From Heterodontus francisci (taxonomy: Eukaryota), in assembly GCF_036365525.1 (NCBI RefSeq), contig NC_090400.1, positions 33,010,613 through 33,074,612 of the forward strand: a DNA stretch of 64,000 bases, given 5' to 3'. The number at the start of each line of letters is the position of its first letter. Position 1 is the first letter of the stretch. Position numbers and translations under genes: made by a program. A model generated the notes under the pieces. The model saw nothing but the letters and a program-made list of their open reading frames with translations. It ran no database searches and had not been told where the DNA came from. Positions 7,021 through 47,800 of this stretch are shown here, one piece after another.

Positions 7021-7508
7021 TATTCCTGGCAAAGATTTAATGACATTTGTCCTGGTTGTAAACAAAAGAAAAATTATAGTCGGTAAGTTCAGTACCTTAA
7101 TGTCACAGTAAAATGTCACAATATCCAATAAAACAACTGTTAGTCCAGGGATGCAAAACTTCACTCAATCACCAATTTCATCCAACAATAAAGCATTCCA
7201 TAAAGCAAGGCTCACAAAATCAACAGCAGTTGTCCTTTCTTTTAAAGCGAGTCTCTCTCTCTCAGGGTTTAATGGGTAAAGGCTCCAATCTCTGGTCTGT
7301 GCTGATTCCCTGATGTGTTCCTGGGGACTGTTTGATGAATTTGGTAAAATGACACCTTTAAACCCTGAGCAGGTGACTTCCAAGCTGCAGTTTGATGGGA
7401 ACATTGAAATCCTTCTGCTGTCTGATTCAATGTGGTTTGTAGTAATCACGCCAAAAATATCATCTACCTCCAAAAGTAAGACACCATTGTGAACACTGTT
7501 GCACCATT

Positions 7509-17405: not shown

Positions 17406-17549
17406 GTAAGGAGTTATTATGGTATTCTTAGTAGATTGTGAAGTCAAATAATTATCTTACAATTATAACAATTAGTAAAAACATTTAAACTGTTCCATTT
17501 TCCTTTATTAATTTTGGAACAGCTCTTATTCTGCTTTAGGTCTAAGTCA

Positions 17550-18540
17550 GAGTCATGAAGTCAGAGTTATATAGCACAGAAACAGGCCCTTCGGCCCATC
17601 GCGTCTGTGCCGGCCATCAAGCACCTATCCATTCTAATCCCATTTTCAAGCACTTGGCCCGTAGCCTTGTATGCTATGGCATTTCAAGTGCTCATCTAAA
17701 TACTTCTTAAATGTTGTGAGGGTTCCTGCCTCTACCACCCCTTCAGGCAGTATGTTCCAAATTCCAACCACCCTCTGGGTGAAAACATTTTTCTCCAAAT
17801 CTCCTCTAAACCTCCTGCCCCTTACCTTAAATCTTTGCCCCCTGGTTATTGATCCCTCTGCTAATGGAAAACGTTTCTTCCTGTCTATCCTATCGATGTT
17901 CCTCATAATTTAGTATACCTCAATCAGTTCCCCCCTCAGCCTTCTCTGCTCTAAGGAAAACAACGCTAGACTATCCAGTCTCTCTTCATAGCTGAAATGC
18001 TCCAGCCCAGGCAACATCCTGGTGAATCTCTCTGCACCCTCTCCAGTGCAATCACATCCTTCCTGTAGTGTGGTGACCAGAACTGTACACAGTACTCCAG
18101 CTGTGGCCTAACTATCATATTATACAGCTCCATCATAACCTCCCTGCTCCTATATTCTATGCCTCAGCTAATAAAGGCAAGTATCCCATATGCCTTCCTA
18201 ACCACCTTATCTACCTGTGCTGCTGCCTTCAGTGCTCTATGGGCAAATACACTAAGGTCCCTCTGACCCTCTGTACTTCCTAGGGTCCTACCATCCATTG
18301 TATATTCCCTTGCCTTGTTAGCCCTCCCAAAATGCATCACCTCACACTTCTCAGGATTAAATTCCACTTGCCACTGCTCTGCCCATCTTACCAGCCCATC
18401 TATATTCTGTAATCTAAGGCTTTCCTCCTCACTATTTACACCACCAATTTTCGTGTCATCTGCAAACTTACTGATCATACCTCCTATATTCACGTCTAAA
18501 TCATTAATGTACACTACAGACAGCAAGGGTTCCAGCACTG
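17550..18540 (-). mobile_element. 5'-truncated CR1
   Basis: ORFs 18164..18538 (SKFADDTK) and 17646..17906. Confidence 0.9.
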
Positions 18541-18545
18541 AGGCT

Positions 18546-18825
18546 ACACACCATTAACATACCGTTTGCCTTTGCTCCATAACCTTCTGGTCAGTTAATC
18601 TCTGTGACCCTGTCCTGTTAACACCTTCCCTTTTGTTATCTCTTGCCCTACCCCTGCTTTATTTGTTTAAAACCTGTTACATTTCTAACCTTTGCCAGTT
18701 AAGGGTCACTGACCTGAAACGTTAACTCTGCTTCTCTCTCCACAGATGCTGCCAGACCTGCTGAGTATTTCCAACATTAATTGTTTTTATTTCAGATTTC
18801 CAGCATCTGCGTTATTTTGCTTTTA
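18546..18825 (+). mobile_element. Neptune-like PLE 3' fragment with deleted hammerhead core
   Basis: Collinear with 32580-32859; reads gccagtt-aagggtc where other copies carry ctgatg or ccgaag. Confidence 0.8.
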
Positions 18826-19079
18826 TTTATGTAAGAATGAAGCCATTAGGTTCCCATTGTATTACGACTATTGGTCTCAAACCAATATCTGTAACGTCCC
18901 AATGTCGTCCCTGGTGTGCTGGTCAATATTTATTCCTCAACATCACTAAACAGATTATCTGATCATTACCTCATTGCTGTTCGTGGAACCTTGACTGCCA
19001 TGTTTCCTACACTACAACAGTGACTGCTCTTCAAAAGTTAATTATTAGCTGTAAAAGCACTTTGGAACATCTCAGGTTG

Positions 19080-21660: not shown

Positions 21661-22689
21661 TAGTCTCAGACCTCTACCAATGTAACGCTGTATCTAACTG
21701 CTCTGAGGTATGTGTGAGTATCTCAGCTTGACCTGCTCAATAATTTTCATTCCTCCGGGGGATTGCAACAACCACAGCTTTCTTCAGTGCCTCTCCCTGA
21801 TGACCTGTCTGAAATTTCACATTCAGCCCAAAGAAATGCGAGTACAAAGGCCAGTACAGTACTAGCATTGCCTGGTTCAAACCATCGGAATATTAATGAG
21901 CTCTGCCTAGGACAGTGTAAGGAGTTTAATTTAAAAAATGGTCTAGGCTGAAACAAACAAATATAACTTAAGTAATAAAAATTAACCATCTGAACAAAGA
22001 AAAATGAACAGACATCAGTTAACAATGAGAAATTGCAGTGCATTTAATAATCTTGCAAAAGCTAATCTACACTGAATAATTGATTCAATTTGTGCTGCTT
22101 TGTGAAAGAGACAGATATTCGTCCTGTTTCAGATGTATTTATTCCCTAAACATTCCTTTTAGATATTTAATGATCAGTTAAAATAAGTGTTATTACTGAG
22201 GATTGAAATTGCACTTTATGTTAGTTATGAACACATTAATGCAGTTACATGAAATTCTGTTGTTATTTTAATGAAGGTGTTAACCCGTTTATTTTAGCCA
22301 CTTTGTTGCTAATACTGCAGTGTGATTTCAAGTACTTCAATGTGCTTATGGAAAAAAAAAATCAGGCTTTTCACTGGGCAATTTGTTCACACATCTGTGC
22401 CATTTTGGAGCTCTGCATAATTTATCAGCTGACAGCTAGGCAATGCTCCATAATGATGTTGCAAAGCAATTGTTAAAGGAATCTATTTAGAGATGATGCT
22501 GGCTAAAATTGTGCTGCATACACTTTTAAGTATTAATTGATTAGTTAATTATAATTATCAAACATTAATTTCAAGTGTATTATCAAGTGAAGAAAATGCA
22601 AGCAATCCCAATATGTTCAGTTCGGATCATTGGAGTCCAATGACATCAGTGGGCTCTAACTGTAATTTTAACTCTACCCTGAGTGGGGA

Positions 22690-25605
22690 AGCTGCTGTGG
22701 CATCCCACTTTCTAACCAGTATTCAGTTCTGAGTACCGATGGAAGAGAAAGTTCCTCTGGAGAGAGCAGCGAGAGTCATGACCAGAGCACTATGGGTGGC
22801 TCAGCTGTTCAGGGAGGGAGGAGAAAAGATAGGACAGCAATAGTGGTAGGGGATTCTATAGTCAGGGGAACAGACAGGCGTTTCTGTGGTCGCAGATGTG
22901 ATTCCAGGATGGTCTGTTGCCTCCCTGGTGCAAGGGTCATGGATATCACCAAGCGGCTATGGAGCATTCTGGAGAGCGAGGGTGCACAGCCAGAGGTCGT
23001 GGTCCACATTGGTACCAATGATACAGGTAGAAAAGGGGATGAGGTCCTACAGGCTGAGTTTAGGGAGTTAGGAAAGAGATTAGCAAGCAGAACCTCAAAG
23101 ATAATAATCTCCGGATTACTCCCAAGGCCATGTGCTATTGAATACAGAAATAGGAGAATACACCAGATGAATGCATGGCTGGAGAGACGGTGCAGGAGAG
23201 AGGGCTTCAGATTTCTGGGGAATTGGGACCGGTTCTGGTGAAGGTGGGACCTATACAAGCCAGACAGTTTACACCTGAACAGGACTGGGACGAATACCCT
23301 TGCAGGAAGGTTTGCCAGTGCTGTTGGGGATGATTTAAACTGGATTGGCAGGGGGATGGGAACCTGAGGGCAGTTTCAGATAGGACAAATTCAGGGCAGG
23401 GAACGGGAGGCATAAAATTAGTGAGTGACACTGAAAGGCAGAAAAAGCAAAGGTTAAAAAGTGTGCAGCACTGGAATTTGGCAGTGTTAAAGGGTATTTA
23501 TTTAAATGCAAGGAGTATAGCACAAAAAGGCAATGAGCTGAGGATGCAGATAGACACATGGCAGCATATCATTGCTATAATGGAAACTTGGCTTAAAGAG
23601 GGGCAAGAATGGCAGCTCAACATCCCTGGATATAGAGTTTTCAGGCAGGATAAAGAGGGGGATAAAAAAGGAGAGGGTGTAGCATTATTGTTTAAGGAAT
23701 CAGTAACAGCTGTGTGGAGGGATGATATGCTAAATGAATCATCAAATGAGGCCCATATGGGTTGAGCTCAGAAATAAAAAAGGGGCAACCACACTACTAG
23801 GAGTGTACTATAGAGCCCCAAATAGTGAGAGGGAGATAGAAGAACAAATATGTAGGCAAATTTCTGAGTGCAAAAACAATAGGGCAATAATAGTTGCGGA
23901 TTTCAAGTACCACAAAATCAACTGGGGTACATACAGTGTGAAGGGCACAGAGAGCACAAAATTCTTGAACTGCATTCAAGGGAACTTTTTAGCCAGCACA
24001 TAACAAGCCCAAAGAGAGGGGCACAATTCTAGATTTGGTCTTAGGAAATGAAGCTGGGCAAGTGGATGAAGTAGCAATGGGTGACCATTTTGGAGATAAT
24101 GACCATGATACAGTTTGATTTAGCATTATTATGGAAATGGTCAAAGATAGAACAGGAGTAAAAGTTCTAAATTGGAGGAAGGCAAATTTTACAAAGCTGA
24201 GAGGTGATCTGACAAAAGTGGAATGGATACAGCTACTTGAAGGAAAATCAGTGGCAAACCAGTGGAAGGCATTCAAAAGCGAGATTCTACGGGAACAGTG
24301 TAGACATGTCCCCACAAAGAAAAAGGGTGGTACTGCCAAATCTTGAGTCCCCTGGTTATCTAGAAGCATTCAGAGTAAGATAAAGCAGAAAAAGAAAGCT
24401 TATGACAGTCACAAAAAACTTAATACTTTAGAAAACCTAGTGCAGAGGTGAAGTAAAAAAGGAAATTAGGAAAGCTAAGAGAGGACATGAAAAAATATTG
24501 GCAGGTAAAATCAAGAAAAACCCAAAGATATTTTATCAGTACATTAAGAGCAAGAGGATAACTAAGAAAAGGGTAGGGCCTGTCAGAGATGGACAAGGTA
24601 ACTTAATCGTGGATGCTGAAGATGTGGGCAGGGTTCTTAATGAGTACTTTATCTCTGTCTTCATTAAGGAATGATGCAGACATAGTAGTTAAAAGGAGGA
24701 GTGTGAAATATTAAATATGATAAGCATAATGAGAGAGGAAGTACTAGAGGGTCTCACATCCTTGAAAGTGGATAAATCACCAGGGCTGGATGGATTGTAT
24801 CCCAGGTTGTAAAAGGAAGCCAGGGAGGAAATAGCGAATGCTCTGAGGATCATTTTCAAATTCTCACTAGATACAGGTGAAGTACCAGAGAATCGGAGGT
24901 CTGCAAATGTTATACCATTGTTTAAAAACAGTGCAAGGGATAGGCCAAATAATTATAGGCCAGACTGACCTTGGTGCTGGGCAAATTACTAGAATCAATT
25001 CTGAAAGCTTGGATAAACTGTCACTTAGAAAGGCACGGATTAATCAGGGATAGTCAGCATGGATTTGTTAAGGGAAGGTCATGTCTTACCAACTGGCTCA
25101 TAATTGCTCTGGAGAAAGTACAGAGGAGATTTACAAGAATGCTGCCAGGGCTTGAAAATTGCAACTATGAGGAAAGATTGGATTGGCTAGGGTTGTTAGG
25201 GTTAGAACAGAGGAGGCTGAGAGGTGAGTTAATTGAGGTGTACAAAATTATGAGGGGCCTAGATAGAGTAAACAGGAAGGACCTGTTTCCCCCAGCGGAA
25301 AGGTCAATTACCAGGGGGCACAGATTTAAAGTGGCTGGTAAAAGAATTACAGGGGATATGAGGAAAAACCTTTTCACCCAGAGGGTGGTAGGTGTCTGGA
25401 ATTCGCTGCCCAGATCGGTGGTGGAGGCAGAAACCCTCAACTTATTTAAAAGATACTGGACCTGCACCTGAAGTGCTGTAACCTTCAAGGCTACAGACCA
25501 GGTGCTGGAAGGTGGGATTAGAATGAGCGAAAGTTTTTCAGTCAGCGCAGACACGATGGGCTGAATGGCCTCTTTCTGTGCCGTAACTTTTCTATGGTTC
25601 TATGA
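22690..25605 (+). mobile_element. Degenerate CR1 (ORF1 esterase, APE, RT with internal deletion)
   Basis: GDS/HIGTND ORF 22792..23241; SCLTN is joined almost directly to ALEKVQRRF near 25092, so the RT core is missing. Confidence 0.9.
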
Positions 25606-26894: not shown

Positions 26895-29800
26895 CTGAAA
26901 CAATAAAGGTAAATCCCATGTTAAGTTTCCAGATGGCAATAATTTTTATCCGATATATCATTTCTGGAGATTTTTTCCATAAATATAAAGAACAAAGCAA
27001 AAGGTGTATACTCAAGTGGCTTAATCTAAAACTCACAGTGTAAAGACAATAAAACATGGATAAGAAATGGACATTATAACAGATTTAAGGTGATTGATAG
27101 AAGGATTAGAGGGAACATGAGGAAAAACTTTTTCACCCAGAGGGTGGTGGGTGTCTGGAATTCACTGCTAGGAATGGCGGTGGAGCCAGAAACCCTCAAT
27201 TCTTTTAAAAGGTACCTGGACATGCACCTGAAGTGCTGTAACCTGCAAGGCTATGGACCAGGTGCTGGAAGGTGGAATTAGATTGGGTAGCTAGTTTTCT
27301 CAGCTGGCACGGACATGATGGGCTGAATGGCCTCCTTCTGTGGCGTAATTTTTCTATGGTTCTATAACCTGCAAATAAGACCTGCGCCCGAACAAAAACT
27401 TTAGCTAAAAAATCCAATTTAGCAGCCTGTAGAAGCAGAGAGATTTGCTATCACTTGCGGTAATATAACTTTCAGCAATGGTGGAAAATGGACTAAATGA
27501 GATTGGATGGACCTAATACACTTCAATGGCTAAAAAAATTGGACAGAGTACATAATGGGCACCAATCTGATGTTGTCCCCTTCACATCCCCATTGAAGTT
27601 GTAAATTCAGACAAATGTTGAATTGAAATAAATCACATATAGTTTAATGATTTGTACTTTTATCCCAATTATTTGTTCTCATGACAATTCCCCTCAAATG
27701 GAACTGCTTTTTTTCTAAAATTTGAGAACTACTGGCTTCTCCATAACCAGCATCTGTAGCTTCCCCATGAGAATATAATAGGACATACACTGTGACACAA
27801 CAAGAGAGGTGGTTAACTTTCCTTCCTGCCTTGAGATGCAATGCACCATGATATGAATCACTCCACAAATAAAACATTCCAAATTTCAAATGTTGGGCAG
27901 TTATGGCTCCATGTCATGTTATAACATCACTCTATAAAATCAATTTACCTAAATAAATTGGCATTAAAAAATTGATGGAAACTGTATTATCAACTTTTAA
28001 CAATTTTTCATTATTGATACGTTACTAATTGTGGTTGAACAAAATGTTTTAGCACCACATGTCCTCATATCAATATACCAGCAGAGATGTTCAAACATTA
28101 GCTTGAGCAAGTCTACAGAGCTGCAAAATTGGCAGCACCTGTTCTTTACCAACATGAAATCTGTGCAGCATTCAAAGTTAAGGATGGCCTACTACCAAAG
28201 TTTTGCTGGCTTTCCATTGATCTTCTATATCATGAATTCAACAAATGAACTTGCTGTTGTGGGCAGAGAATATAAGCATATCTAGTGCATTACAGATTCC
28301 AAACACAACAAAATTAAGAACTGTCATCAATTGCAGGCTGGAGTAGCTTGCTGTAAAGCTTGCTTTTGGTCATTTTTATCTCCATGCCTTTGCAACCTCC
28401 AGATCCGACTATCCCAACACACACCTGGATGGCCTCCCAACTTCCATAAACTTGAGCTCATTCAAAGCTCTGTTGCCCGTATCCTAACTTGCAGCAAGTC
28501 CTGTTCACACGTCACCCCTGTACTCATTAACTTGCATTGGCTCCTGGTCCAGCAACGACTCAGTTTAAAGGTTGTCATCCTTGTGTTCAAATCCCTCCCT
28601 ATCTCTGTAAACTCCTCCAGCCCTGCAGCTCTCTGAGATCTCTGCATTCCTCCAATTCTGGTTTCTTGTGCATCCTGAATTTTCATTGTTGTGCTATTGG
28701 GAGCCATGCATTCATCTGGGTAGATCTTAAGCTCTGGAATTCCTTCTTTAAACCTCCTTGCTTCTCCACCTTTCTCGCTTCCTTTAAAACACTATCAAAA
28801 ACTACTGTTTTGACCAAGTTTTTGATCACCTGTTCTAACATCTCTTTGTGGCGCAGTGTAAAATTTTGTTCGATAATGTTCCAATGATGTGTCTTGGGAT
28901 GTTTTTACAACATTAAATGCAAGTTGTTGTTGTCATTAGATAACTCCACATTAGATAACTGACAAGGTTCATAAATGAGGGGCTTTGGCAAAGAGACATC
29001 CCCACTATGAGGCTGACTGCCCCGCCAGTATACTCACTGAGAGGTTGGTGGAGGCCACAGCTCGCCCTATTTTCTTTTTGCTACAAATCCACGGTTAGTC
29101 CTGGACATGGGCTAGAGCAAAACGTTCTCTTGCATGCTTTGGTATTTTGCACCATAAATGAGAACCATTTGGTGATGTTTTATAGTCCGCAAGCTTAATC
29201 TACATTGGAAATTTGCTGTCATTTAAGTATCCTTTTCCCTTTCTCACTGTGATCCCAAAAGATATTGTTAAGGCTAAAGCTGGCATTATGACCAACTTGA
29301 ATTAACAATTTGGTCAGGTGGCATTGGACTTCCAAACAATACCTTCAAGATCCTCCCTTGGCCTGGGTATAGCAATAATAACTCATTCATGGCACGCAGC
29401 ACACAATCCTGCTTGTTCACAAGATCCTACTTGTTAGCCCATTGTTCCATATAGTGAGTGCAGCTGACTAGATCTCCAGGTGATGCCACCAACAATCTCA
29501 TGTGCACCAACAGACTGGCTGGTACAGAGAGTTATCAGACATTTATTTTACCAATGAGTTTTGGGTTTGAATCATTCTCAGGCTGATGAGAAAAAAAGAT
29601 TTGTATTTATGTAGCACCTTTCACAAATTCACACCATTCCTAAGTGAATGATGGTCTTTTGATGTGCAGTCACTGTTGTAACATAGGAAACACAGAGCCA
29701 AATTGCACACAGCAAACTTCCATAAAAAGCAATGTGATAATGAGCAGATAATCTGATTTTAGATCAAAAACAAGAAATGCTGGAATCACTCAGCAGGTCT

Positions 29801-32800
29801 GGCAGCATCTGTGGAAAGAGAAGCAGAGTTAAAGTTTCGGGTCAGTGACCCTTCTTCGGAACTGACAAATATTAGAAAAGTCACAGATTATAAGCAAGTG
29901 AGGTGGGGGTGGGGCAAGAGATAACAAAGGAGAAGGTGCAGATTGGACCAGGCCACATAGCTGACCAAAAGGTCACGGAGCAAAGGCAAACAATATGTTA
30001 ATGGTGTGTTGAAAGACAAAGCATTAGTACAGATTAGGTGTGAATACACTGAATATTGAACAGCAGCAAGTGCAAACCTGAAAAAAAAACCTGAAAAAAA
30101 CAGTGGGTAAGCAAACTGAACAAACTAAGATGAAATGAAATCTTAGTTTGTTCAGTTTGCTTACCCACTGTTCTTTTCAGGTTTGCACTTGCTGCTGTTC
30201 AATATTCAGTGTATTCACACCTAATCTGTACTAATGCTTTGGCTTTCAACACACCATTAACATATTGTTTGCCTTTGCTCCGTGACCTTTTGGTCAGCTA
30301 TGTGGCCTGGTCCAATCTGCACTTTCTCCTTTGTTATCTCTTGCCCCACCCCCACCTCACTTGCTTATAATCTGTGACTTTTCTAATATTTGTCAGTTCC
30401 GAAGAAGGGTCACTGACCCGAAACGTTAACTCTGCTTCTCTTTCCACAGATGCTGCCAGACCTGCTGAGTGATTCCAGCATTTCTTGTTTTTGTTTCAGA
30501 TTTCCAGCATCCGCAGTATTTTGCTTTTATCTGATTTTAGATGTTAGGGATAAATATTAGCCAAGACAGTGGAGAGAACCCCCATGCTCTTCTTTAAAAT
30601 AATACTGTGGGATCTGTTGCACCTGCTTGAGATGGCAAATGGGGCTTCAGTTTAATCTGGCATCTGAAAGATGGCACCTCATACAGTGCAGCACTCCCAG
30701 AGTACTGCACTGAAATGTCAGCCTAGATTTTGTGCTCAATTCCCTGGAGTATTCTTTCTCTGCTTAAGAACATAAGTGTCACGAGTTTGGGCAGTTTCAG
30801 GCTGGTCACTGTCCCACAGTACAAAAACTGCCCCTTCCTTTTCCTTCAACTAGATAGAAAAAAAACAAGAAAAAGACCAGTGGAAATTTTCTAAAATAAG
30901 TCCCATCAGATAGTTTACCCAGATCTTCAGAACATAAACCTTACCTGACTCCTGCTGATAGGAATGGCTTCTGCAAATACTGTCCAGATTACTACCTCAT
31001 TACAGGTAGGAGTAGTTAATGAGCCACTATAACGGTAGTATTTACCAAGCTTTTCTTTGTCTAAAATCATTTCATTCAGTGGGAAAGGTGTCAGCAGTGT
31101 TTTGTTGCCTAAGTAAAAATTAGAAAAGTACAAAGAGCTTCAATATTATCTAAAGAAGGGAACTAATAATAAAATACAAGAAATGCTGGATTCACTCAGC
31201 AGGTCTGGCAGCATCTGTGGAAAGAGAAGCAGAGTTAACGTTTCGGGTCAGTGACCCTTCTTCGGAACTGACAAATATTAGAAAAGTCACAGATTATAAA
31301 CAAGTGAGGTGGGGGTTGGGCAAGAGATAACAAAGGAGAAGGTGCAGATTGGACCAGGCCACATAGCTGACCAAAAGGTCACGGAGCAAAGGCAAACAAG
31401 ATGTTAATGGTGTGTTGAAAGACAAAGCATTAGTACAGATTAGGTGTGAATATACTGAATATTGAACATCAGCAAGTGCAAACCTGAAGAAAAACAACCT
31501 GAAAAAAACAGTGGGTGAGCAAACTGAACAAACTAAGATGAACTGAAATAAATACAAAAAAAATTGTAAAAAATGTAAAAAGGAATGCCAAAAAAAAAAG
31601 GAAGAAAAAATAACTAAAAATGAAAGTAAAGTGGGGGGCTGTCATGCTCTGAAATTATTGAACTCAATGTTCAGACCGGCAGGCTGTAGTGTGCCTAATC
31701 GGTAGATGAGATGCTGTTCCTCGAGCTTGCGTTGATGTTCACTGGAACACTGCAGCAATCCCAGGACAGAGATGTGAGCATGAGAGCAGGGGGGAGTGTT
31801 GAAATGGCAAGCAACCGGAAGCTCAGGGTCCTGCTTGCGGACTGAGCGGAGATGTTCCGCAAAGCGGTCACCCAGTCTGCGCTTGGTCTCCCCAATGTAG
31901 AGGAGACCACACTGTGAGCAGCGAATACAGTATACTACATTGAAAGAAGTACAAGTAAATCGCTGCTTCACCTGAAAGGAGTGTTTGGGGCCTGGGATCC
32001 CAGGCCCCAAACACTCCTTTCAGGTGAAGCAGCGATTTACTTGTACTTCTTTCAATGTAGTATACTGTATTCGCTGCTCACAGTGTGGTCTCCTCTACAT
32101 TGGGGAGACCAAGCGCAGACTGGGTGACCGCTTTGCGGAACATCTCCGCTCAGTCCGCAAGCAGGACCCTGAGCTTCCGGTTGCTTGCCATTTCAACACT
32201 CCCCCCTGCTCTCATGCTCACATCTCTGTCCTGGGATTGCTGCAGTGTTCCAGTGAACATCAACGCAAGCTCGAGGAACAGCATCTCATCTACCGATTAG
32301 GCACACTACAGCCTGCCGGTCTGAACATTGAGTTCAATAATTTCAGAGCATGACAGCCCCCCACTTTACTTTCATTTTTAGTTATTTTTTCTTCCTTTTT
32401 TTTTGGCATTCCTTTTTACATTTTTTACAATTTTTTTTGTATTTATTTCAGTTCATCTTAGTTTGTTCAGTTTGCTCACCCACTGTTTTTTTCAGGTTGT
32501 TTTTCTTCAGGTTTGCACTTGCTGATGTTCAATATTCAGTATATTCACACCTAATCTGTACTAATGCTTTGTCTTTCAACACACCATTAACATCTTGTTT
32601 GCCTTTGCTCCGTGACCTTTTGGTCAGCTATGTGGCCTGGTCCAATCTGTACCTTCTCCTTTGTTATCTCTTGCCCAACCCCCACCTCACTTGTTTATAA
32701 TCTGTGACTTTTCTAATATTTGTCAGTTCCGAAGAAGGGTCACTGACCCGAAACGTTAACTCTGCTTCTCTTTCCACAGATGCTGCCAGACCTGCTGAGT

Positions 32801-35800
32801 GAATCCAGCATTTCTTGTTTTTGTTTCAGATTTCCAGCATCCGCAGTATTTTGCTTTTATAATAATAAAATACCTTTTGCTAACTACAGCCTTGAAATAA
32901 TACCGTACGAAGATCAATGCATGAATGCAAAATAGCTCATGTTAAACTCCTTTGTTCACTATTTTAAAAAAGCTACTAACCAACTTACTTTAATGAGCTA
33001 ATAATTCCTTTAAAAGGGAGGGGGGGGACAAAGAAATTTAATATCAATATTTTGAGTGTTGTCTCCATTTGGCAGAATTTCAATGTTGCGATTAATTGTT
33101 ATATAATGTAAACTCTGTGAGGGACACTGTAACCTCAAAAAAACGGATGGGTTTGAATCAGGTGGGATGTCAAAATTTTAAGAATCTCAAACCTGACTCT
33201 AACTTGCCTCCACTCAGCCCACTTTTAATGGAGGTGTGATGGAGGGTCAGGCAACCAACCTGCTCCCTGGAGGCGTGCTGCCCGTTTAAATATTGTAAGG
33301 TAGGGTGTCACATATTTAATCTATCTTCCAGGTTTAATCCTGGTCATCTGGGTTTCCTGAGCCTCGGAAATCCGGCAGCTAAAGGCTGGGGAGGACTGCT
33401 CATAGAAGAGGTAAGTGTCATTACTGTACAGCTTCTGGGTAAGGAGGAGCACAGCATCAGACCCCTAACCCCGCCCCTCCCACCCTCCCCCCAGAATTCA
33501 AAGTTCCCATTCCCCGGAAAACAAAGACAACCCCGCAATCGGACTACCCCCGGAATCGAGCATCAGACTCCCTGCCCAGGAGCAAAGATCAGACCCCTCC
33601 TCCCTTTCTGAACATTCCCCACCTGAAAGGGAGCCAAGCCTGTCAATCAGGCTGGCTTCCAGGTAGGGAACCTGCTTTGAAAAAAGGACTCACACTGTTC
33701 ATTAAAATTAGTCTGTGTTTCCTGGCCAAAACTCCTCCTCCACCACTCAAAAGGCCCACCCAAGTAAATAACGGGGCTTGTCCTTTGCAGCAAGTGACTG
33801 AAAGAGGGAGCAGTTATATTTACTGCATTATATACAATGCCTGTTACTACAGCAGCATTATAGTATTTCAGGTAACAGAGAATGCGCTTTTGAAAATAAT
33901 ATGTCTTCTCAGCAACTTAGCCCTCCTGATAATGCTACTTCATCATAAGAATGACACCATTTAACTTCAGCAGTGAGAACTGCAGCAGGTTTTAACACTT
34001 GGAATTTTTTGCTGCCTCACATTGCTTACCAACGGATCAAAACAAGAGCAAAGGGAAAAAGAGGGAAACACAAATTATTCTTTTTAATGAAACTATTCTT
34101 TTTTCTGTATTGTTCTTCCCTTTTCTCCTGAAGGTGCTGACTGTTGTATTTTATGAAATCAGCTGACTATCAGACTGTCTCAAAGGCAAAGGCGTTCACA
34201 TCTGGACTAATTGACAACATTTTTTGTTTGTTCAGATTGAATAACCTGGAAAAATGAAAGCAAAAAGGATTCGTAAAAAGGGAAAAAAAATAAGGAGAGC
34301 AATGGAAGAAAATAAATTAAATGCGGATAAATGAAAAGAGACAGAATGGAATATACTGAAATAAAAACAGGAAATGCTGGAAACACTTAGCAGGTCAGGC
34401 AGCGTGTGTGGAGAGAGAAACAGTTTCAGGTCAGTGACCTTTCATCAGGATACAAGTGATCAACCCAAAACGTTAACTGTTTCTCTCTCCACACATGCTA
34501 CCTGACCTATTGTATCATAGAATCATAGCAACTTGCAGCACAATAATAGCAATTAAAGGGATTATTAGAGTTGGCAATAGAAAATGAAAATCAGGGCCAG
34601 AAATAGCTGGGGAGGGGGGAGGGTGGAGGGAAGTTGGGGATACGGAGGGGGTGGGGAGTGGGGGGTGGCGGAGGCGGGGATCGTTGGAGAGAAGCAGAGA
34701 AGAAAGCAAGAGATAATTGGAAGGGATGGGAGATGTAATCAGGGAAGAGATAGTTGAATTTTTTATATTGTTATTAATACTTACCAGTTTGTTGAACTGT
34801 TTTCAGAACATCGATCAGCTTTTTCATGTTTGAATTGTCTTCAGGTGATTCCTATAAAGAGTTAAAGAGATAAATATAAGCCATGCTGTTGGGGAGGAGA
34901 AGTTGGCAGACCAGGGGTGAGCACTCCTGTTATTCCTGCCCCACAGCAGTGCTGTGAAGGCACATACCTTCTCCCCAAAGTTATCCTCACCTCACATCAG
35001 CTGCCAGGTTCCTGAGGCCTGGGAAACCCTGCCGTACGCTGTAAAACCTGCAAAGCAGGTTAAATCAGAGGCTGCCAGCCTCATTAAAATATCTGAATTG
35101 CCAACCCACCCCGTGGGAGCCGGTTGGCTTCCCGCCTTTTGTCTCGCCTCCATTAAACCCAAGTGGGCAGGTTGGGGGGGGGGGGGGGGGGGCGGGTTCC
35201 CAATATGCTCAAATTTTGCCTGATTTAACTCCTCATCCTGACCCAACCCCACACGCTCACTCATATTAATATTCCCTCCGGTGAGTAGAAAATCTAGTCC
35301 CTGATATCTAGGCACAGACATGAAGAATGACAACTTGGGGAAATATCTGTGGGAGGCTGTGCTCTTTGGAGCATCCCCCATTGTGCACCCCAACTTCAGA
35401 AGAGGAGCAGGTGCATACTATCAGCTTCATTATCAGTTAAGCTTTAAGCTAAGTCGTACAAAAGAATTTCACAAACATCTGCAGAGCACCATATTTGATA
35501 AATAATGAATGCAATACTATCTAACAGACATCTATTGTGATTTATTTCAATCTATTTTTCGAACATTAAATATAATTCCATAGGATTGCTTCTGTGAAAA
35601 TATTTGAGCTGTTTTCCTCTGTCACAACTTGCTGAGTGATTCCTCCCAGTCGTAGTGTAAATGCTGAGGAACATTACTCACTACAAAGAAGAATCCCAGC
35701 ACGGCCAGACCATCAGGATGTGTTAGGGCATCTTCCAAGGAATTGTATTTTTGATTCTGGTGGACTACATGCAACTGCAGAAAGCAAATTCATGATGGTT

Positions 35801-38800
35801 ACAAATCACACAGAATTCTACATAACAATTATAGTTTTAATAAGCTTACAGAAAGATGGGTCCTAAATCACTGTGTATATAAATTTATAGTGCATAAGAT
35901 AATGGGAGCGTTGTTGATGTAATCTTATGTTAATATTTGGGGATTTCTTGGACTGCAAAATTGATCCAGGAAGGATTTTGTGTGCACTAAGCAGTCAACA
36001 GAGAGGGCAATCCTCGTAGGTATGGGAGAGGAGGCCACTCCTTCTATCTGCATGAAGTAGGGAAGGATTTTGTACTTCCAAAGTAATAATTCACTCACTT
36101 GAATTAATTTGGCTTGGTAAATATGAAGTGAACATGAAATATAGAATCAGAACACAACAAAAAGAAGTGCTGGCTCAAGCATAACTTTGAAGTTACCATA
36201 TCAATGATTTTCCTACGTAATGACCTGAAAGCAAAGCAGATACGCAGGATAACAACAGAGTGACTTTTTTTGCATTCGTTTCTGAGCCAGCATTTATTGC
36301 TCATTCCTAATGGCCCTTGAGAAGGTGGTGGTGAGCTGCCTTCTTGAATCGCTGCAGTCCATGTGGGGTAGGTACACCAACAGTGCTGTTAGGAAGGGAG
36401 ACCGAGCGACAGTGAAGGAACGGCGATATGGTTCCAAGTCAGGATGGTGTGTGGCCTTGAGGTGAACTTGCAGGTGGTGGTGTTCCCATGCATCTGCTGC
36501 CCTTGTCCTTCTAGGTGGTAGAGGTCACGGGTTTGGAAGGTGCTGTCTAAGGAGCCTTGGCGCGTTGCTGCAGTGCATCTTGCAGATGGTACACATTGCT
36601 GCCACTGTGCGTCAGAGGTGGAGGGAGTGAATGTTGAAGGTCGTGCATGGAGTGCCAATCAACAGGGCTGCTTTGTTCTGGATGGTGTCGAGCTTCTTGA
36701 GTGTTGTTGAAGCTGCACTCATCCAGGCAAGTGCAGAGTATTCCATCACACTCCTGACTTGTGCCTTGTAGATGGTGGACAAGCTTTGGGGGAGTCAGAA
36801 GGTGAGTTACTTGCTGCAGGATTCCTAGCCTCTGACCTGCTCTTGTAGCCACGGTATTTATATGGCTACTCCAGGTCAGTTTCTGGTCAATGGTAACCCC
36901 CACGATGTTGATAATGGGGGATTCAGCGATCGTAATGCCATTGAATGTCAAGGGGAGATGGTTAGATTCTCTCTTGTTGGAGATAGTCATTGCCTGGCAC
37001 TTGTGTGGCGCGAATGATACTTGCCACTTATCAGCCCAAGCCTGGATATTGTCCAGGTCTTGCTGTATTTCTACACGGACTGCTTCAGTATCGCAGGAGT
37101 CGCGAATAGTGCTGAACATTGTGCAAACATCAGCGAACATCCCCACTTCTGACCTTATGATTGAAGGAAGGTCATTGATGAAGCAGCTGAAGATGGTTGG
37201 GCCTAGGACACTACCCTGAGGAACTCCTGCAGTGATGTCCTGGAGTGCAGATGATTGACCTCCAACAACCACAACCATCTTCCTTTGTGCTAGGTGTGAC
37301 TCCAACCAGTGGACAGTTTTCCCCCTGATTCCCAATGACTCCAGTTTTGCTAGGGCTCCTTGATGCCACACTCTGTCAAATGCCACCTTGATGTCGAGGG
37401 CAGTCATTTTCACTTCACCTCTTGAGTTCAGCTCTTTTGTCCATGTTTGAACCAAGGCTGTATTGAGGTCTGGAGCTGGGTGGCCCTGGCAGAACCCAAA
37501 TTGAGCATCACTGAGCAGGTTATTGCTAAGCAGGTGCTGCTTGATAGTACTGTCGATGATACCTTTGATCACTTTACTGATGATTGAGAGTAGACTGATG
37601 GGCCGGGTTAGACTTGTCCTGCTTTTTGTGTACAGGACATACCTGGGCAATTTTCCACATTGCAGGGTAAATGCCAGTGTTGTAGCTGTACTGGAACAGC
37701 TTGGCTAGGGGCAGCGCAGGTTCTGGAGCACAGGTCTTCAGTACTATTGGCGGAATGTTTTTAGGGCCCATAGCCTTTGCAGTATCTAGTACCTTCCGTC
37801 ATTTCTTGATATCATGTGGAGTGAATCAAATTAGCTGAATTTGAAGAAGTGCCACTGACCTGAAACGTTAACTCTGCTTCTCTCTCCACAGATGCTGCCA
37901 GACCTGCTGAGTATTTCTAGCATTTCTTGTTTTTATTTCAGATTTCCAGCATCTGCAGTATTTTGCTTTTAAATTAGCTGAAGACTGGCATCTGTGGTAC
38001 TGGGGACTTCAGGAGGAGGCCGAGATGGATAACCAACTCGGCACTTCTGGCTGAAGATTGTTGCAAATGCTTCAGTCTTATCTTTTGCACTGATGTGCTG
38101 GGCTCCCCCATCATTGAGGATGGGATATTTGTGGAGCCACCTCCTCCAGTTAGTTGTTTAATTGTTCACCACCATTCACGACTGGATGTGGCAGAACTGC
38201 AGAGCTTAGATCTGATACGTTGGTAATGGGATCGCTTGGCTCTGTCTAATGCATGCTGCTTACACTGTTTGGCACGCAAGTAGTCCTGGGTTGTAGCTTC
38301 ACTAGGTTGACACCTCATTTTGAGGTATGCCTGGTGCTGCTCTGGGCATGCCCTCCTGCACTCTTCATTGAACCAATGTTGATCCCCCGGCTTGATGGTA
38401 ATGCTAGAGTGGGGGATATGCCGGGCCATGAGGTTACAGATTGTGGTTGAGTACAATTCTGCTGCTGCTGATGGCCCACAGCACCTCTTGGATGCCCAGT
38501 TTTGCATTGCTAGATCTGTTCGAAATCTATCCCGTTTAGCATGGTGATAGTGCCACACAACATGATGGAGGGTATCCTCAATGTGAAGGCGGGACTTCGT
38601 CTCCACAAGGACTGTACTGTGGTCACTCCTACCAATACTGTCATGGACAGATGCACCTGCGGCAGGCAGAATGGTGAAGACACGGCCAAGTATAGTTTTC
38701 CCTCTTGTTGGTTCCCTCACCAGCTGCCGCAGACCCAGTGTAGCAGCTATGTCCTTTAGGAGTCGGCCAGCTTGGTCAGTAGTGGTGCTACTGAGACACT

Positions 38801-41800: not shown

Positions 41801-44800
41801 CACTCCGCTGATTTTTCTGCAACTCCACAAATTTTTATGCTCCTTTTAAAGTATTTATCCAATTCCCTATTGAAAGTTATTATTAATAATGTCAAACTTT
41901 GCAGATGACACCAAACCCGGAAATGTAGCAAACAGTGAAGAGGACAGTAACAGACTTCAGAAGGAGATCGACTGGTGAAATGGGCAGATGAAATTTAACT
42001 CAGAGAAATGTGGAACAATTCATTTTGGTAAGAAGAATGAGGAGAGGCAATATAAGCTAAATGGTACAATTTTAAAGTGGGTGCAGGAATAGAGAGACCT
42101 GGGGGTTAAATACACAAGTCTTTGATGGGCTCAGGACAGGTTGAGAAAGCTGTTAAAAAAGGAATATGGGAGCTTTGGCTTTATAAATAGCAGCATAGAG
42201 TGCAAAAAAAGGAAGTTATGCTAAACCTTTATAAAGCACTGGTTAGGCCCCAGCTGGTGTTATTATTATTGAACCTGCTTGCACCTCCCTTTCAGGCAGT
42301 GCATTCTAGTGTCGTTCTGTAAAGCAATCTTTGCTCATGTCGCCACTGGTTCTTTTGCCAGTTACCATACATCTGGGTCCTCTGGTTACAGATGCTTTTG
42401 CCACTGAAAGAGTTTCTTCTGATTTAATCCATCGAAACCCTTCAAAATTTTGATTACCTCTAACAACTCTCCTCTTAACCGTCTCTGTTCTGGAGTTTCT
42501 CTAGTCTTCCCACATGACTGAAGACCTTTATCTCTGGTAATGATTCTAGCAAATCTCCTCTGAACCCCTCTTAATGCCTTAATTGACATCCTTCCTAAAA
42601 TCTGATGCCCAGAATAGGGCACAATACACCACCTTTAACCTCAGTGCTTCATAAAGGTTTAGCATAACCTCCTTCTTTTGCACTCTATGCCGCTATTTAC
42701 AAAGCCTAGGCTCCCATATGTCTATTTTAACAGCTTTCTCAACCTGTCCTGAGACCGTCAAAGACTTGTGTATTTAACCCCCAGGTCTCTCTATTCCTGC
42801 ACCCACTTTAAAATTGTACCATTTTGTTTATATTGCCTCTCCTCATTCGTCTTACCAAAATAAATTGTTCCACATTTCTCTGAGTTAAAATTCATCTGCC
42901 CATTTCACCAGTCGATCTCCTTCTGAAGTCTATTACATCCTCTTCACTGTTTGCTACATTTCCGGGTTTGGTGTCATCTGCAACGTACAACATTATACCC
43001 TCTATACCCAATTCCAATCATTAATATAGATCAAAAAGAGCAGTGGTCCCAACACCCACCCGTAAGGACACCAGTGCACACTTCCCTCCAATCTGAAAAA
43101 TAACTGTTCATCACTACTGTCCACTGTCCAGTCTCTTCCCACCTACATCCATGACACTTCTGGCACCCTACGTCATTTCGACAGTTTCCTTGCCCTAACT
43201 ATCTCCTCTTCACAATGGGTGTCCACCACCACCCTCCTCCACCTGGCTGAACTTATTCTCACACTGAACAACCTCTCCTTCAACTCCATTCACTTCCTCC
43301 AAATAAAAGGTGTTGCTATGGGTACCCGCATGGGTCCTAGCTATACCTGTCTTTTTGTGGGATATGTCGAATATTCCTTGTTCCAGTTCTACTCAGGCCC
43401 CCTACCCCAACTCTTTTTCCGGTACATTGATGATTGTATTGGTGTCACTTCCTGCCCTTGTGCCGAACTGGAAAACTTCATCAATTTTGCTTCCAATTTC
43501 CACTCTTCTCTCACCTTCACATGATCCATCTCCGACACTTCCCTTCCCTTCCTCGACTTCTCTGTCTCCATCTCTGGGGATAGGCTGTCCACTAGTATTT
43601 TTTATAAGCCCACTGACTCCCTGGGCTACCTTGACTACACTTCCTCACACCCAGCCTCCTAAAAGGACTCCATTCCATTCTCCCAGTTTCTCCGTCTCCG
43701 ACGCATCTGTTCTGATGACGCTACCTTCCACGACAGCGCTTCTGACATGTCTTCCTTTTTCTTCAACCGAGGATTCCCCTGCACTGTAGTTGACAGGGCC
43801 CTCAACCGTATCCGACCCATTTCCCATACTTCTGCCCTCATCCCTTCCTCTCCTTTCCAGAACTGTGACAGGGTTCCCCTTGTCCTCACTTTCCACCCCA
43901 CCAGCCTCCACATCCAAAGGATCGTCCTCCGCCATTTCCGTCACATTCAGCATGATGCCACCATCAAACACATCTTCCCCTTCCCTCCCCTGTCAGCATT
44001 CCAAAGGGACCGTTCCCTCCGTGACACCCTGGTCCACTCCTCCATCACCCCGACACCTCTTCCCTTTACCACTGCATTTTCCCATGCAACCGCAGGAGGT
44101 GTAATACCTGCCCTTTTACCTCCTCTCTCCTCATCATCCAAGGCCCCAAACACTCCTTCCAGGTAAAGCAATGATTTACTTGTACTTCTTTCAATTTAGT
44201 ATACTGTATTCACTGCTCACAGTGTGGTCTCCTCTACATTAGGCGACCGCTTTGCAGAACACCTCCGCTGGGTCCGTAAGCATGATCCCGAACCTCCAGT
44301 TGCTTGCCGTTTTAATACTCCATTTTGTTCCCATGCCAACATTTCTGTCCCCAGCCTCTTGCAGTGTTCCAGTGAACATCAATGCAAGCTCGAGGAACAG
44401 CACCTCATTTTCAGATTAGGCACTCTACAGCCTTCTGGACTCAATATTGAGCTCAATAATTTCAGACCATGATCCCCATTATTTATTGTTTATTTATTAT
44501 TTTAATTTTTTTACATATATATATATTCCTCTTTTTTAATTATTTCTTTATTTATTTTTAAACATGTGCTAGTCTTAAACTTATTTTCATGTTTTTGCTT
44601 TCGTACTGATCTGTTCATTTTTCTGCCATTAGTACTCTGTTTGGACTCGTGATTTCTCTTTCCCTACAACTATTTAGCACTCCATTTGCATTCTGTTCCA
44701 AGACATCTGTCATTTAATCTCTCCCCTCTCTGTCCAATCACAGTCCTTCCTTCTAGTTCTCCTTCCCCTCCTCCCCCTTTCACTTGCTCAAAGACTGTTA

Positions 44801-47800
44801 CATTTCTAACTTTTGCCAGTTCTGATGAAGGGTCGCAGACCTGAAATGTTAACTCTGTTGCTCTCTCCACAGATGCTGCCAGACCTGCTCAGTATTTCCA
44901 GCACTTTCTGTTCTCATTTCAGAGTTCCAGCATCCACAGTATTTTGCTCTTATTTGTTGACCACCACCGTCTGCTTTCAGTCCCTTCAACTATTTTGTAT
45001 CCAAGCAGACACTGCCTCTTTACTCCCATGGGCTGCAATTTTGCTAACCAGTCTATTATGTTGAATATTATTTATCAAGTGGAATGAATTTTCAGAACTT
45101 ACTTGAGTGACCGTCGTTTTGTATAGCCCATTGATTATCTGTAACAACACGATCGTAACCCTCAAAGATAATGGCATCCAATCTGCTTTCATATTTAGCT
45201 TTCTCGGTTACAATGTTGATGGGTGACTGCTTCTGCATTCCACATATTTGATAGTGATTCTTCCAGGTGCTGGGTTCTAGAAAGGATGATACAAGTCAGT
45301 TAGCAGTGCACAAAGTGTATTTCTATGTAACAGTGTTAAATGTTAGCATGGCTCAGAGAAAGCACTATCCCCCCACATAAAGAGTTTGTAGGTTTCAAGA
45401 CCTACAACAAGATTTGCCCACCTAAGCTCGGCTGATACCTCAGCAGATTACAAAGGGACTGCTGCACAGTCAGAGGTGTTGTCTTTTGCTGAGATATTAA
45501 ACCAGGATTGTACAACATACGGCCTGCGGGCCAGGATCCGGCCTGCCAAAGGTTTCCATCCAGCCTGTGGATGCAAGCTGTACTTGGGGCTGTTCCTCAT
45601 CCTCCCAGGGCTTCATGACTGGAGATGGGAAATTTCCCATTGTCATCTTCTTGCAGAGAGGCCTTTTTAAAAACATCGCCCTGTCAGTTTCACAGCTGAC
45701 AGCTGCTGAAGCAGGAAGGCACTTCCCAACTTTGACAGATTCAGGGTTTTCCGACTTTTTTTTAAAAGCCCACCGGAAAACCCCAAATCTATCCGATGTT
45801 GGGAGGTGCATTCCTGCTTCGGCGGTTGTCAGCTGTGAAACTCAGCGCAACGTTTTTAAACAAACCGATCGAGCACAAAGCTGCTGTGCTGAGTGCTCCC
45901 ACTCAGAGTAACTCACAGAGAGAGGGGGAGAGAGGGGAGAGAAAGAGGGGAGAGGGGTGGTGAAAACAGAGAGGGGGGAAACAGAGAAGGGGGAATAGAG
46001 AGAGAGGGGTGAACAGAAAGAGTGGGGGACAGAGAGAGGGGGGACAGAGAGAGAGAATGAGGGGGGGAAACAGAGAGAGTGGGGTGAAAACAGAGAGGGG
46101 AAACAGAGAGAGGGGAACAGAAAGAGAGAGGGGGAAACAAAGAGAGAGCAGAACAGAGAGAGAGGGGGAACAAGGAGGGAGAGAGGGAAACAGAGAGAGA
46201 GGGCAAAACAGAGGAAAAAGGGGGCAACAGCGAGAGAGGGAGGGAAAACAGAGAGGGGGAACAGAGAGAGTGAAGGGGGACAGAGTAAGGGGGGACAGAG
46301 GGGGAGGACAGAGTGAGGGGGGGGACAAAGTGAGGAGGGACAGAGGGGGGAGGGACAGAGGGGGGAGAGTGAGAGGGGGGTATGGGGGGAGAACACAGAG
46401 AGTGAGGACGACAGTGAGGGGGGGGGAACAACACAGAAAGGGGGCAACACAGAGAGAGAGAGACAGAAACAGAGGGAGAGCTCAAGATCACTCCTGACAG
46501 ATGGATATCTATCCAGAATACTCTGCAACACTACATCAAGTGTGCAGCAGAGATTGACTACTTATGCAAGCAAAAACAATGCCAGGTATGTCACCAAATC
46601 AGTTTTCAATATAGTGACAAGAAAGTAAGTCAATAAATTAGTCTTCTTATTTAAAGCTTCTTCACAAAAATGCACATTTGTTGTTGTTTTTATTAGTAAG
46701 ATCAATTTTTAATGCCTTTATCTTTTGAAAATTGCTCGCCAGCCCCCTGGGATGAGCAAAAATCGTAGTACAACCCTATATTAAACCAAAGGTCCATCTG
46801 TCTGCTCAAGTGAATGTAAAAGATCCTATAGCAATATTTGAAAAAGGGCATGGAGTCTGGGTTAACATTTATCCCTCAACCGTTTATCTCATTGCTGTTT
46901 GGAAGACTTTGATGTGCACAAATTGGCAGCTGCATTCCCCTACAAAACAACAGTGGTTGCACTTCAAAAAAGTCATTTTGTCGCTGTGAAGTGATTTGGG
47001 ACACTTCATAGCTACTTACTCAAAACCCCAAAAAACACACTAAATTTAATAAAACAAAGTCAATTATAGGGTTTGAGAGTCAACAGTTTACAACATTGTA
47101 GAAAGAGTTAGGTAAATATCTGAAGAAAAATATTAAAGGATTTGAGAAAAGAACAGAAAAATGTAACTCATGTAAATGGCTGGAGTTAGCAAAGGAACTG
47201 GTAATTGTACAGATATGATGGGGCAAAATGTTCTCCTTCTCATTTACATTTCAATTGTTCAAATTGTTCAAATTGTTCAAATTGACTGGCCATCCCATTA
47301 GTTATAGCATTGGAGGATTTAATTCCCAATTAAGAGAAATACTTTAACTTTACCTAAATAGGTGAAAATATAGAAAATTATATTATAATGGCAGACAGTT
47401 GTATATCAGGAACTTTAACATGACAGTTTGCTGGAGGTGGAGTTCTATTTTTTGTTTTTCACTGCCAGCAGATCACAAGATCTTGAACTTTATCTGGAAC
47501 GATATTAAACTGGAAATAATTGTGATGTGCAATCCTTTAAAATATTGGCATCAAATTCCTCTATCAACTAGCTTAATGAAGGTGTTAACATGTTGACCTT
47601 AAATGGGTTAATGCTTCCATTTAACTGGCAGAATGAGGAATTTGATACAAACATATAAACTGCATATGCACTAGCGTTGCTCACAATAATTTCCAGGCTA
47701 TTCTTGCACACATCAAAACAGGAAAAATATTGAAAGGAAAAAGAGAGCAACAGCTGCAAGTTAAGCCAAACTGAGGGGGCTGTTAGAGTCTGAACTGAAT

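What the first reader, a model, noticed from the sequence alone, without database searches (positions are those of the whole stretch)
29751..30542. Second independent fold-back insertion of the same family, 650 bp away
Seen: same architecture (inverted arm, forward arm, 35-bp tail, its own 14-bp TSD) but a different turn-around point and a 10-nt spacer. Both inverted arms stop within about 5 nt of the same position (ccagcatttcttgt[ttttg]), and the old mini-copy at 34356 stops close by. The arms here differ by several substitutions and a roughly 13-bp indel. Inference: a fixed end-point with a variable fold-back point suggests a reproducible copy-back mechanism. The arm differences imply an older event or a switch to a second template.
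Basis: partly seen in the sequence, partly recalled or inferred. Interest (0 to 1): 0.7.

Follow-up and report, generated by a model that had tools for sequence, protein, structure and literature searches.

The report
Head-to-head Penelope-like retrotransposon insertion
This hairpin-shaped stretch is a truncated copy of a very common Penelope-type jumping gene, inserted in the 'inverted copy plus tail' pattern already described for that class, so it is mostly ordinary, though its junction hints at how the pattern forms.

Summary
The structure is real: 14-bp TSD, inverted arm, forward arm, 35-nt tail; arms differ by 4 substitutions in 349 nt and a 13-nt indel. It is the 3' end of a Penelope-like element (PLE): the longer neighbour encodes a GIY-YIG C-terminus, an older copy adds RT motifs and a Neptune/Nematis-type Cys linker. 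Inverted pLTR + 30-40-bp tail + TSD is the published PLE insertion pattern, and the tail ends match two RT start sites in vitro. The second end-point is family-wide: 1,454 raw reads leave the element 38 nt before the main end (orientation unseen). Correction: the 'spacer' is element sequence. The inverted arm reaches 10 nt further 5' than the forward arm starts, and only the forward arm has the tail, so neither arm is a plain copy-back of the other. Best reading: both target nicks prime cDNA, at two start sites; the cDNAs join at a 2-nt AT overlap. The fixed point is a start, not a stop. Age versus second template is unresolved. This scan found such elements before in two other genomes.

The parts
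29751..29764 (+). Left copy of the 14-nt target-site duplication
   Evidence: identical to 30529-30542
29765..30141 (-). Inverted, tail-less arm: 3' UTR and pLTR of the PLE, equal to element positions 32823 down to 32445 of copy A
   Evidence: 96.6% to copy A over 379 columns
30130..30141 (.). Turn-around: AT, 8-nt loop (30132-30139) that is element sequence belonging to the inverted arm, then a 2-nt AT shared by both arms (30140-30141)
   Evidence: loop letter at element 32451 is the majority letter in 1,246 of 1,356 reads
30140..30528 (+). Forward arm (element 32455 to 32858), with one unit of a short tandem repeat missing (13 nt relative to the inverted arm) and 3 private substitutions
30394..30434 (+). 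Minimal hammerhead-like motif in the pLTR (core, 5-bp stem II, GAAA, palindromic helix-III segment); mirrored on the inverted arm around 29824-29864; core position 4 is C rather than U in copies A and B
   Evidence: motif scan; no Rfam hammerhead hit; monomer MFE is another hairpin; activity untested
30494..30528 (+). 35-nt 'tail', present on the forward arm only
   Evidence: family-wide ends at both borders
30529..30542 (+). Right copy of the 14-nt TSD
31164..32873 (.). Neighbouring copy A: 14-nt TSD, near-perfect palindrome centred on the AT at 31997-31998, 41-nt tail; arms differ by 1 substitution and 1 nt in a T run
32000..32350 (+). C-terminal 117 aa of the PLE ORF in copy A: GIY-YIG nuclease with two Cys between the motifs and two downstream His
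   Evidence: (PF01541, E 1.1e-4, 22.8 bits vs cut-off 22.6)
34356..34508 (.). Old copy D: inverted arm 34356 to about 34450 ending at element 32829; decayed forward remnant; no tail or TSD found
37828..37982 (+). Copy E: solo short unit (hammerhead motif to tail end) with a 12-nt TSD, no inverted arm
18546..18826 (+). Copy C: older forward-only 3' fragment ending at the tail end, 81% to copy A
43126..44953 (+). Copy F: older, broken, longer relative with RT motifs, Cys-rich linker, GIY-YIG, 3' UTR, pLTR and tail; 72% to copy A
   Evidence: tblastn of P0001 E 1e-131, of P0026 E 8e-74

Best explanation
Identity (about 0.97): a 5'-truncated, dead-on-arrival insertion of a high-copy endonuclease-positive Penelope-like retrotransposon with a Neptune/Nematis-type linker, in a cartilaginous-fish-like genome. 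Mechanism (the confidence given): the GIY-YIG nuclease cuts the two target strands 14 nt apart; the bottom-strand 3' end primes reverse transcription at the outer start site (tail end) and the top-strand 3' end primes at the inner start site in the U-rich tract 31-44 nt upstream; both cDNAs run toward the 5' end of the same broken or prematurely released RNA and so stop close together; their 3' ends are joined through a self-complementary AT dinucleotide (annealing, or an RT jump from RNA to the other cDNA) and repair fills in the second strands and the TSD. The fixed end-point is therefore an RT start site and the variable turn is the 5' truncation point. Shown: anatomy, family, two family-wide ends, each arm holding sequence the other lacks. 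From the literature: both-strand cleavage and extension and two start sites bounding the tail, in another PLE clade in vitro. Inferred: that the two starts are used by opposite strands in one event, and the joining step.
For: Each arm of B has element sequence the other lacks: tail only forward, 10 nt at the turn only inverted. Both A and B turn at an AT shared by the two arms (for A inferred from copy F and from the Ile codon in homologues). Arms stop 0 and 10 nt apart, unlikely for unlinked truncations (about 0.001 and 0.025 if uniform over 850 nt). Both A arms carry letters rare in the family (32594: at most 53 of 4,438 reads; 32320: at most 184 of 4,662), so one template lineage gave both. 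Two piles of 3' ends in raw reads: 32822 (1,454 reads) and 32859-32861 (6,044), both with low flank agreement, 0.39-0.41. A's TSD 3' end can pair with the U tract at its inner start (5 of the first 6 nt), and both forward ends share 1-2 nt with the TSD start. PMC11167929: a PLE protein cuts and extends both strands, is predicted to be a dimer, and starts RT at two sites that bound the tail.
Against: Only one clean asymmetric junction (B); D is too decayed and A is symmetric. A later central deletion in a once-perfect palindrome could give B's asymmetry whatever the original mechanism (recalled idea; my two searches, and the passages of PMC7999016 gave no direct statement). Short reads do not show whether the 32822 ends sit on inverted arms; one contig joint 32822 to 32583 of unstated kind (table 5c) may be a direct tandem. 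The 32822 pile is not among the rows shown for the contig runs X1/X3 or for X16 (only 6 rows per run shown, 2,443 hidden), and its exact position may be pulled by the common G32823A allele. PMC11167929 saw no difference in start site between top and bottom strands, which does not by itself predict that the tail is always on the forward arm. B's TSD pairs poorly with the RNA at its inner start (2 of the first 4 nt). A 2-nt overlap is weak evidence on its own.
Confidence: 0.58

Rival explanations
1. Top-strand-first fold-back: the cDNA primed at the inner start is made first, its 3' AT folds back across an 8-nt loop, the RT copies this cDNA into plus strand, and the tail comes from a short cDNA primed on the other strand at the outer start.
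For: B's geometry is exactly a hairpin on the top strand (AT, 8-nt loop, AT). In D the tail-less arm also seems to reach further 5'. It explains the close stops of the two arms and rare letters shared by both A arms.
Against: A has no loop, which a 2-nt fold-back cannot form sterically. It still needs priming on both strands at two starts, so it differs from the best explanation only in the template of the forward arm. D is too decayed to count.
Confidence: 0.2
2. One reading: one cDNA primed at the tail end folds back and is copied until a fixed stop 35-41 nt short of the end, giving a perfect palindrome; B's asymmetry arose later by a central deletion at the AT.
For: A is a perfect palindrome; B's arms are more diverged than A's (4 of 349 vs 1 of 821, Fisher p 0.03), so B may have had time to lose its centre; palindromes are unstable (PMC7999016 passages). 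PMC8557442 ascribes the tail to nuclease resolution of an intermediate.
Against: Needs a second event to fit B. Tail-less ends are explained as RT starts by in vitro mapping. No reason is seen for a copy-back to stop at a fixed point.
Confidence: 0.12
3. Self-priming on an antisense transcript, as proposed for head-to-head Penelope copies in a rotifer.
For: Proposed in PMC3846280 (Discussion) for the same head-to-head arrangement with palindromic junctions.
Against: It predates the in vitro result on sense RNA and does not explain why the tail-less end coincides with a family-wide end. No RNA data were examined here.
Confidence: 0.07
4. Assembly or library artefact, or a DNA-level inverted duplication unrelated to retrotransposition.
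For: Hairpins can produce chimeric reads; no read or contig spanning B's turn was examined.
Against: A TSD flanks the whole unit, only one arm has the tail, the arms differ at 5 places, three such units occur with different turns, and four contig sets hold 0.89-0.90 of the sampled words of 27500-33500 (these may be the source sample).
Confidence: 0.03

Closest known systems
Complex insertions of endonuclease-positive Penelope-like elements: pLTR, adjacent inverted 5'-truncated copy, 30-40-bp tail on one end, TSD (PMC3846280; PMC8557442)
   Same: Head-to-head inverted copy, tail on one end only (35 nt here; 31 nt in rotifer Pen2a), TSD around the whole unit (14 nt here; 8-10 nt in the rotifer), palindromic junction, strong 5' truncation.
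   Different: A different family and host; TSDs somewhat longer (12-14 nt in 3 copies); B is only 3' UTR and pLTR, with no ORF.
PAc (Poseidon of Anolis carolinensis), internal RT initiation (PMC11167929)
   Same: Two preferred 3' ends bounding a tail downstream of a hammerhead motif; AT-rich targets.
   Different: PAc is Penelope/Poseidon clade (no Cys linker); starts lie in an AC-rich stem-loop, here the inner end lies in a U-rich tract; that paper's main text does not address how inverted copies form.
Neptune / Nematis clades of PLEs
   Same: C-terminal GIY-YIG with CCHH residues and a CX5CxxC linker in the older copy F and in homologues.
   Different: No RT tree was built, so Neptune versus Nematis is not tested; the linker is outside the young copies A and B.
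L1 twin priming (recalled, no call supports the description)
   Same: Both target strands prime cDNA on one RNA, giving an inversion inside a TSD joined by microhomology.
   Different: In L1 the two arms are different, adjacent parts of the RNA; here they are two copies of the same 3' part because the second start lies only about 35-40 nt upstream of the first.

Membership tests
EN+ Penelope-like element | C-terminal GIY-YIG endonuclease with CCHH motif | tested here: met
   Copy A (97% to B) 117 aa: PF01541 just above cut-off; C26, C29, H48, H64 invariant in 13 aligned sequences. B itself is truncated downstream of the ORF.
EN+ Penelope-like element | RT upstream of the nuclease in one ORF | tested here: met
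   Homologue P0026 has RVT_1 (above cut-off) then GIY-YIG; it and P0001 align along old copy F 43126-44466. F's own 132-aa RT piece gave no Pfam hit at E 0.01; F is 72% identical to A, so this is at the level of a related family.
EN+ Penelope-like element | pLTR in direct or inverted arrangement, optional 30-40-bp tail, TSD | tested here: met
   definition from PMC3846280 and PMC8557442. A full pLTR-ORF-pLTR copy was not seen; depth doubling over 32736-32817 and piles of 5' ends at 32725-32726 fit a roughly 135-nt pLTR.
EN+ Penelope-like element | Minimal hammerhead ribozyme motif in the pLTR | tested here: inconclusive
   Motif scan finds it in A, B, D and F (6 of 7 hits in the window are in these copies); no Rfam hammerhead match; A and B have C at core position 4; cleavage not testable.
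EN+ Penelope-like element | RT phylogeny as sister to telomerase RT | not tested
   No RT tree built.
Neptune/Nematis clades | CX2-5CxxC linker between RT and nuclease | tested here: met
   Copy F frame 3 and homologues P0001, P0026 show C-x5-C-x2-C just upstream of the part held by A; definition PMC8557442.
Neptune/Nematis clades | Placement in an RT tree with reference clades | not tested
   No reference set at hand.
MITE / fold-back DNA transposon | Terminal inverted repeats reaching both ends, fixed short TSD, DDE transposase partner | tested here: not met
   The inverted repeat stops 35 nt before the right TSD; TSDs are 12-14 nt; the related ORF is RT plus GIY-YIG.

The most novel reading that the evidence does not exclude
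The inverted PLE copy is not a fold-back of the first cDNA but a second cDNA primed by the other target strand at the inner RT start site, with a strict rule (inner start on the inverted arm, outer start on the forward arm) and joining at self-complementary dinucleotides. This would be the in vivo counterpart of both-strand extension seen in vitro and would explain the long-unexplained head-to-head structure; a family with roughly 10^4 young copies makes it testable by counting which arm reaches further 5'. My searches listed no paper that tests this; subscription papers and the supplements of PMC11167929 were not seen.
Probability: 0.45. Interest if true: 0.5.

Novelty: new member of a known kind. 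Interest (0 to 1): 0.27.

Why it matters
As a single locus it is an ordinary dead PLE copy. Its value is as a worked example: how PLEs form tandem and inverted insertions is called undefined in PMC8557442, and the junction of this copy excludes the simplest copy-back model unless a later deletion is added. A young, very abundant family in this genome would allow that question to be settled by counting. Such insertions also seed long, unstable palindromes and hairpin RNAs throughout the host genome (inference).

Tried and rejected
No whole genome is held, so the assembly-wide test of inverted-arm ends could not be run; reads were used instead, which show ends but not orientation. A 26-nt pLTR motif found 0 matches in metagenome and viral contigs. 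Rfam gave 31 matches, all below gathering score and mostly microRNA models fitting any long hairpin; rejected. The arm tree (6 rows, 246 columns) joins the A arms at 90/85 and leaves the B arms in an open fork; site patterns are more telling: 7 columns split A from B, 5 are private. All 7 B-shared letters are common in the family (38-99% of X15 reads), so they do not prove one template for B. B's four private letters are not among the 40 variant rows shown (301 hidden), so I cannot say whether other copies carry them. The one-unit form of the short repeat occurs in other copies (5 contigs in X1, 8 in X3), which fits either recurrent slippage or a second template. Two opposite-strand joints in X15 (32565/32595, 39 reads; 32755, 26 reads) were not used as support: they may be library chimeras, and no exact microhomology was pinned for the first. 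Two other inverted pairs in the window (5216/6701, 41886/42996) show no PLE features in the flanks printed. The look-up of earlier findings by place gave nothing.
Full report
Observation. The unit at 29751-30542 (copy B) is as described. The same 14 nt stand at 29751-29764 and 30529-30542, the only shared run of 8 nt or more in the ranges searched; chance expectation is about 1e-5. Inside lie an inverted arm from 29765, a forward arm from 30140 and 35 nt (30494-30528) that only the forward arm has. The arms differ by 4 substitutions in 349 aligned positions and 13 gap columns in a short tandem repeat. Copy A (31164-32873) has its own 14-nt TSD, a palindrome centred on 31997-31998, a 41-nt tail, and arms differing by 1 substitution and 1 nt of a T run. 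In copy-A coordinates the inverted arms end at 32818 (A; the last 2 nt are shared with the TSD), 32823 (B) and 32829 (old copy D). Five forward copies with intact ends (A, B, C at 18546, E at 37843, F at 44137) all run to the tail end; E has a 12-nt TSD, and none was found for C, D or F.

One correction matters. The 10-nt 'spacer' is element sequence on the inverted arm: 29765-30141 aligns to element 32823-32445, while the forward arm begins at element 32455. The single mismatch to A in that stretch, at 32451, is the family majority (1,246 of 1,356 reads in run X15). The two arms share the AT at 30140-30141. In A the arms also meet on an AT; that it is element sequence is inferred from copy F and from the Ile codon in homologues.

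What it is. Copy A's arm encodes 117 aa with a GIY-YIG match (E 1.1e-4, 22.8 bits against a cut-off of 22.6). A search of longer proteins returned 33 hits at E 1e-10 or better among 103 candidates; those with organism names are from sharks, skates and rays. Of 3 proteins scanned, P0026 has RVT_1 then GIY-YIG above cut-off, P0001 has GIY-YIG above and RVT_1 below cut-off, and the 132-aa RT piece of copy F had no hit. P0001 and P0026 align along the broken older copy F at 43126-44466, which shows RT motifs and a C-x5-C-x2-C linker, the mark of the Neptune and Nematis clades (PMC8557442 passages). A minimal hammerhead-like motif lies about 100 nt before the tail start in A, B, D and F; Rfam does not match it and the monomer folds otherwise, in line with minimal PLE hammerheads thought to act as dimers (PMC4209133, first of 4 parts read). 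B is thus the 3' UTR and pLTR of an endonuclease-positive Penelope-like element.

The family beyond the window. No genome was held. I laid 4 of the 18 listed runs on A's forward arm plus flank. In raw reads of X15 the element is covered about 1,250-14,600 deep against 0-0.8 on the unique flank; that suggests thousands to tens of thousands of copies, a rough figure from a capture library. The six loose-end rows shown for X15 are: 5' ends before 32725 and 32726 (695, 788 reads; start of the hammerhead motif) and 3' ends behind 32822 (1,454), 32859 (842), 32860 (4,459) and 32861 (743). Flank agreement at 32822 is 0.40, as low as at the true end, so these are many different insertion sites. This confirms a second family-wide end about 38 nt before the main one.

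Comparison with what is known. PMC3846280 (passages and Discussion read) describes pLTRs with an adjacent inverted pLTR, a 31-bp tail on one of them, 8-10-bp TSDs and palindromic junctions, and proposes self-priming on antisense RNA. PMC8557442 (passages) calls the inverted 5'-truncated copy and a 30-40-bp tail typical and the mechanism undefined. PMC11167929 (parts 1-2 of 4 read, covering the main text; supplements not read) shows that a PLE protein cuts and extends both target strands, prefers AT-rich DNA, and starts reverse transcription at two sites that bound the tail. The architecture flagged here is therefore known. Earlier agents of this scan reported the same kind of element in two other genomes; my identification was made and noted before that look-up. 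The bioRxiv preprint 10.64898/2026.07.22.740005 (passages) added only that Neptune and Poseidon are widespread in vertebrates.

How it most likely works. Read along the bottom strand, B is cDNA from the tail end to element 32455, then plus strand from 32445. A cDNA that ended at 32455 cannot template 32445-32454, so a plain copy-back of the tail-primed cDNA does not give B. Read along the top strand, B is cDNA from 32823 to 32445, then plus strand through a tail this cDNA does not contain. Neither arm is a full copy of the other. The simplest single-event model is priming from both nicks: bottom strand at the outer start, top strand at the inner start, both cDNAs stopping near the same RNA 5' end and joining at an AT. 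The stops are coupled (0 and 10 nt apart; about 0.001 and 0.025 if independent and uniform over 850 nt), and both A arms carry letters rare in the family (32594, at most 53 of 4,438 reads; 32320, at most 184 of 4,662), which points to one RNA or one source locus. The case rests on one clean asymmetric junction, and the later-deletion alternative (recalled; not documented) cannot be excluded from one locus. Against my reading, PMC11167929 saw no strand difference in start sites, and B's TSD pairs poorly with the RNA at its inner start.

Arm differences. B's arms are more diverged than A's (4 of 349 against 1 of 821, Fisher p 0.03); the 3:1 split of private changes is unremarkable (p 0.63). Seven columns separate both B arms from both A arms, but all seven B letters are common in the family (38-99% of reads), so two RNAs of one subfamily are not excluded; the tree leaves the B arms unresolved. 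The one-unit form of the short repeat occurs in other copies (5 and 8 contigs). An intact TSD is expected under either reading. I lean about 65:35 to post-insertion ageing because the close stops of the arms suit a single template.

Verdict. Observation confirmed with one correction; interpretation partly supported; a new member of a known kind; interest 0.27. The more novel reading, a rule-bound dual priming that explains head-to-head PLE copies, has probability about 0.45 and would merit about 0.5; searches listed no paper testing it, within a library that lacks most subscription journals.

Noticed in passing
window 32725-32860 (equivalent 30395-30530; copy E 37828-37982): Raw reads show a pile of 5' ends at 32725-32726, the start of the hammerhead motif, and depth doubles from there to the tail: a roughly 135-nt hammerhead-plus-tail unit occurs often on its own or as the 5' pLTR; copy E is a solo example with a 12-nt TSD.
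   Followed up: partly
window 32565/32595 and 32755 (run X15): Two recurrent opposite-strand joints (39 reads from 33 starts; 26 reads from 23 starts), far above single-locus depth; the second sits on the 6-nt palindrome of the hammerhead helix III. Either fold hot spots shared by many copies, amplified palindromic sub-elements, or library chimeras.
   Followed up: partly
window 29750-29764: B's target site is itself a short inverted repeat (4-nt arms, 6-nt gap), and its left part is complementary to 7 nt near the start of the tail; may be chance or target-RNA pairing.
   Followed up: no
window 30400 and 32730: The young copies A and B have C instead of U at hammerhead core position 4, whereas older copies D and F have the canonical U.
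   Followed up: no
window 31177-32818: Copy A is an 820-bp-arm palindrome with no spacer and only two differences between arms; such structures are expected to be unstable, so it is probably very young.
   Followed up: partly
window 41886-42241 / 42642-42996 and 5216-5334 / 6585-6701: Two other inverted pairs at 93% identity with 400-nt and 1,250-nt gaps; not this family; the first looks like LINE-type coding sequence by eye (untested).
   Followed up: no
window 7592-11228, 16193-18541, 22687-25430, 51706-52333: Several long dispersed repeats at 65-95% identity; tblastn with RT-containing P0009 hits 10100-10509, 16336-16736, 18296-18541 and 36958-37365, so other RT-encoding retroelements are present.
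   Followed up: no
protein hits P0005, P0008, P0016, P0033: Several annotated host gene models in rays and sharks (named as a kinase-domain protein, mucin-2, receptor-transporting protein, HHAT) contain this PLE nuclease segment: exonisation or annotation error.
   Followed up: no
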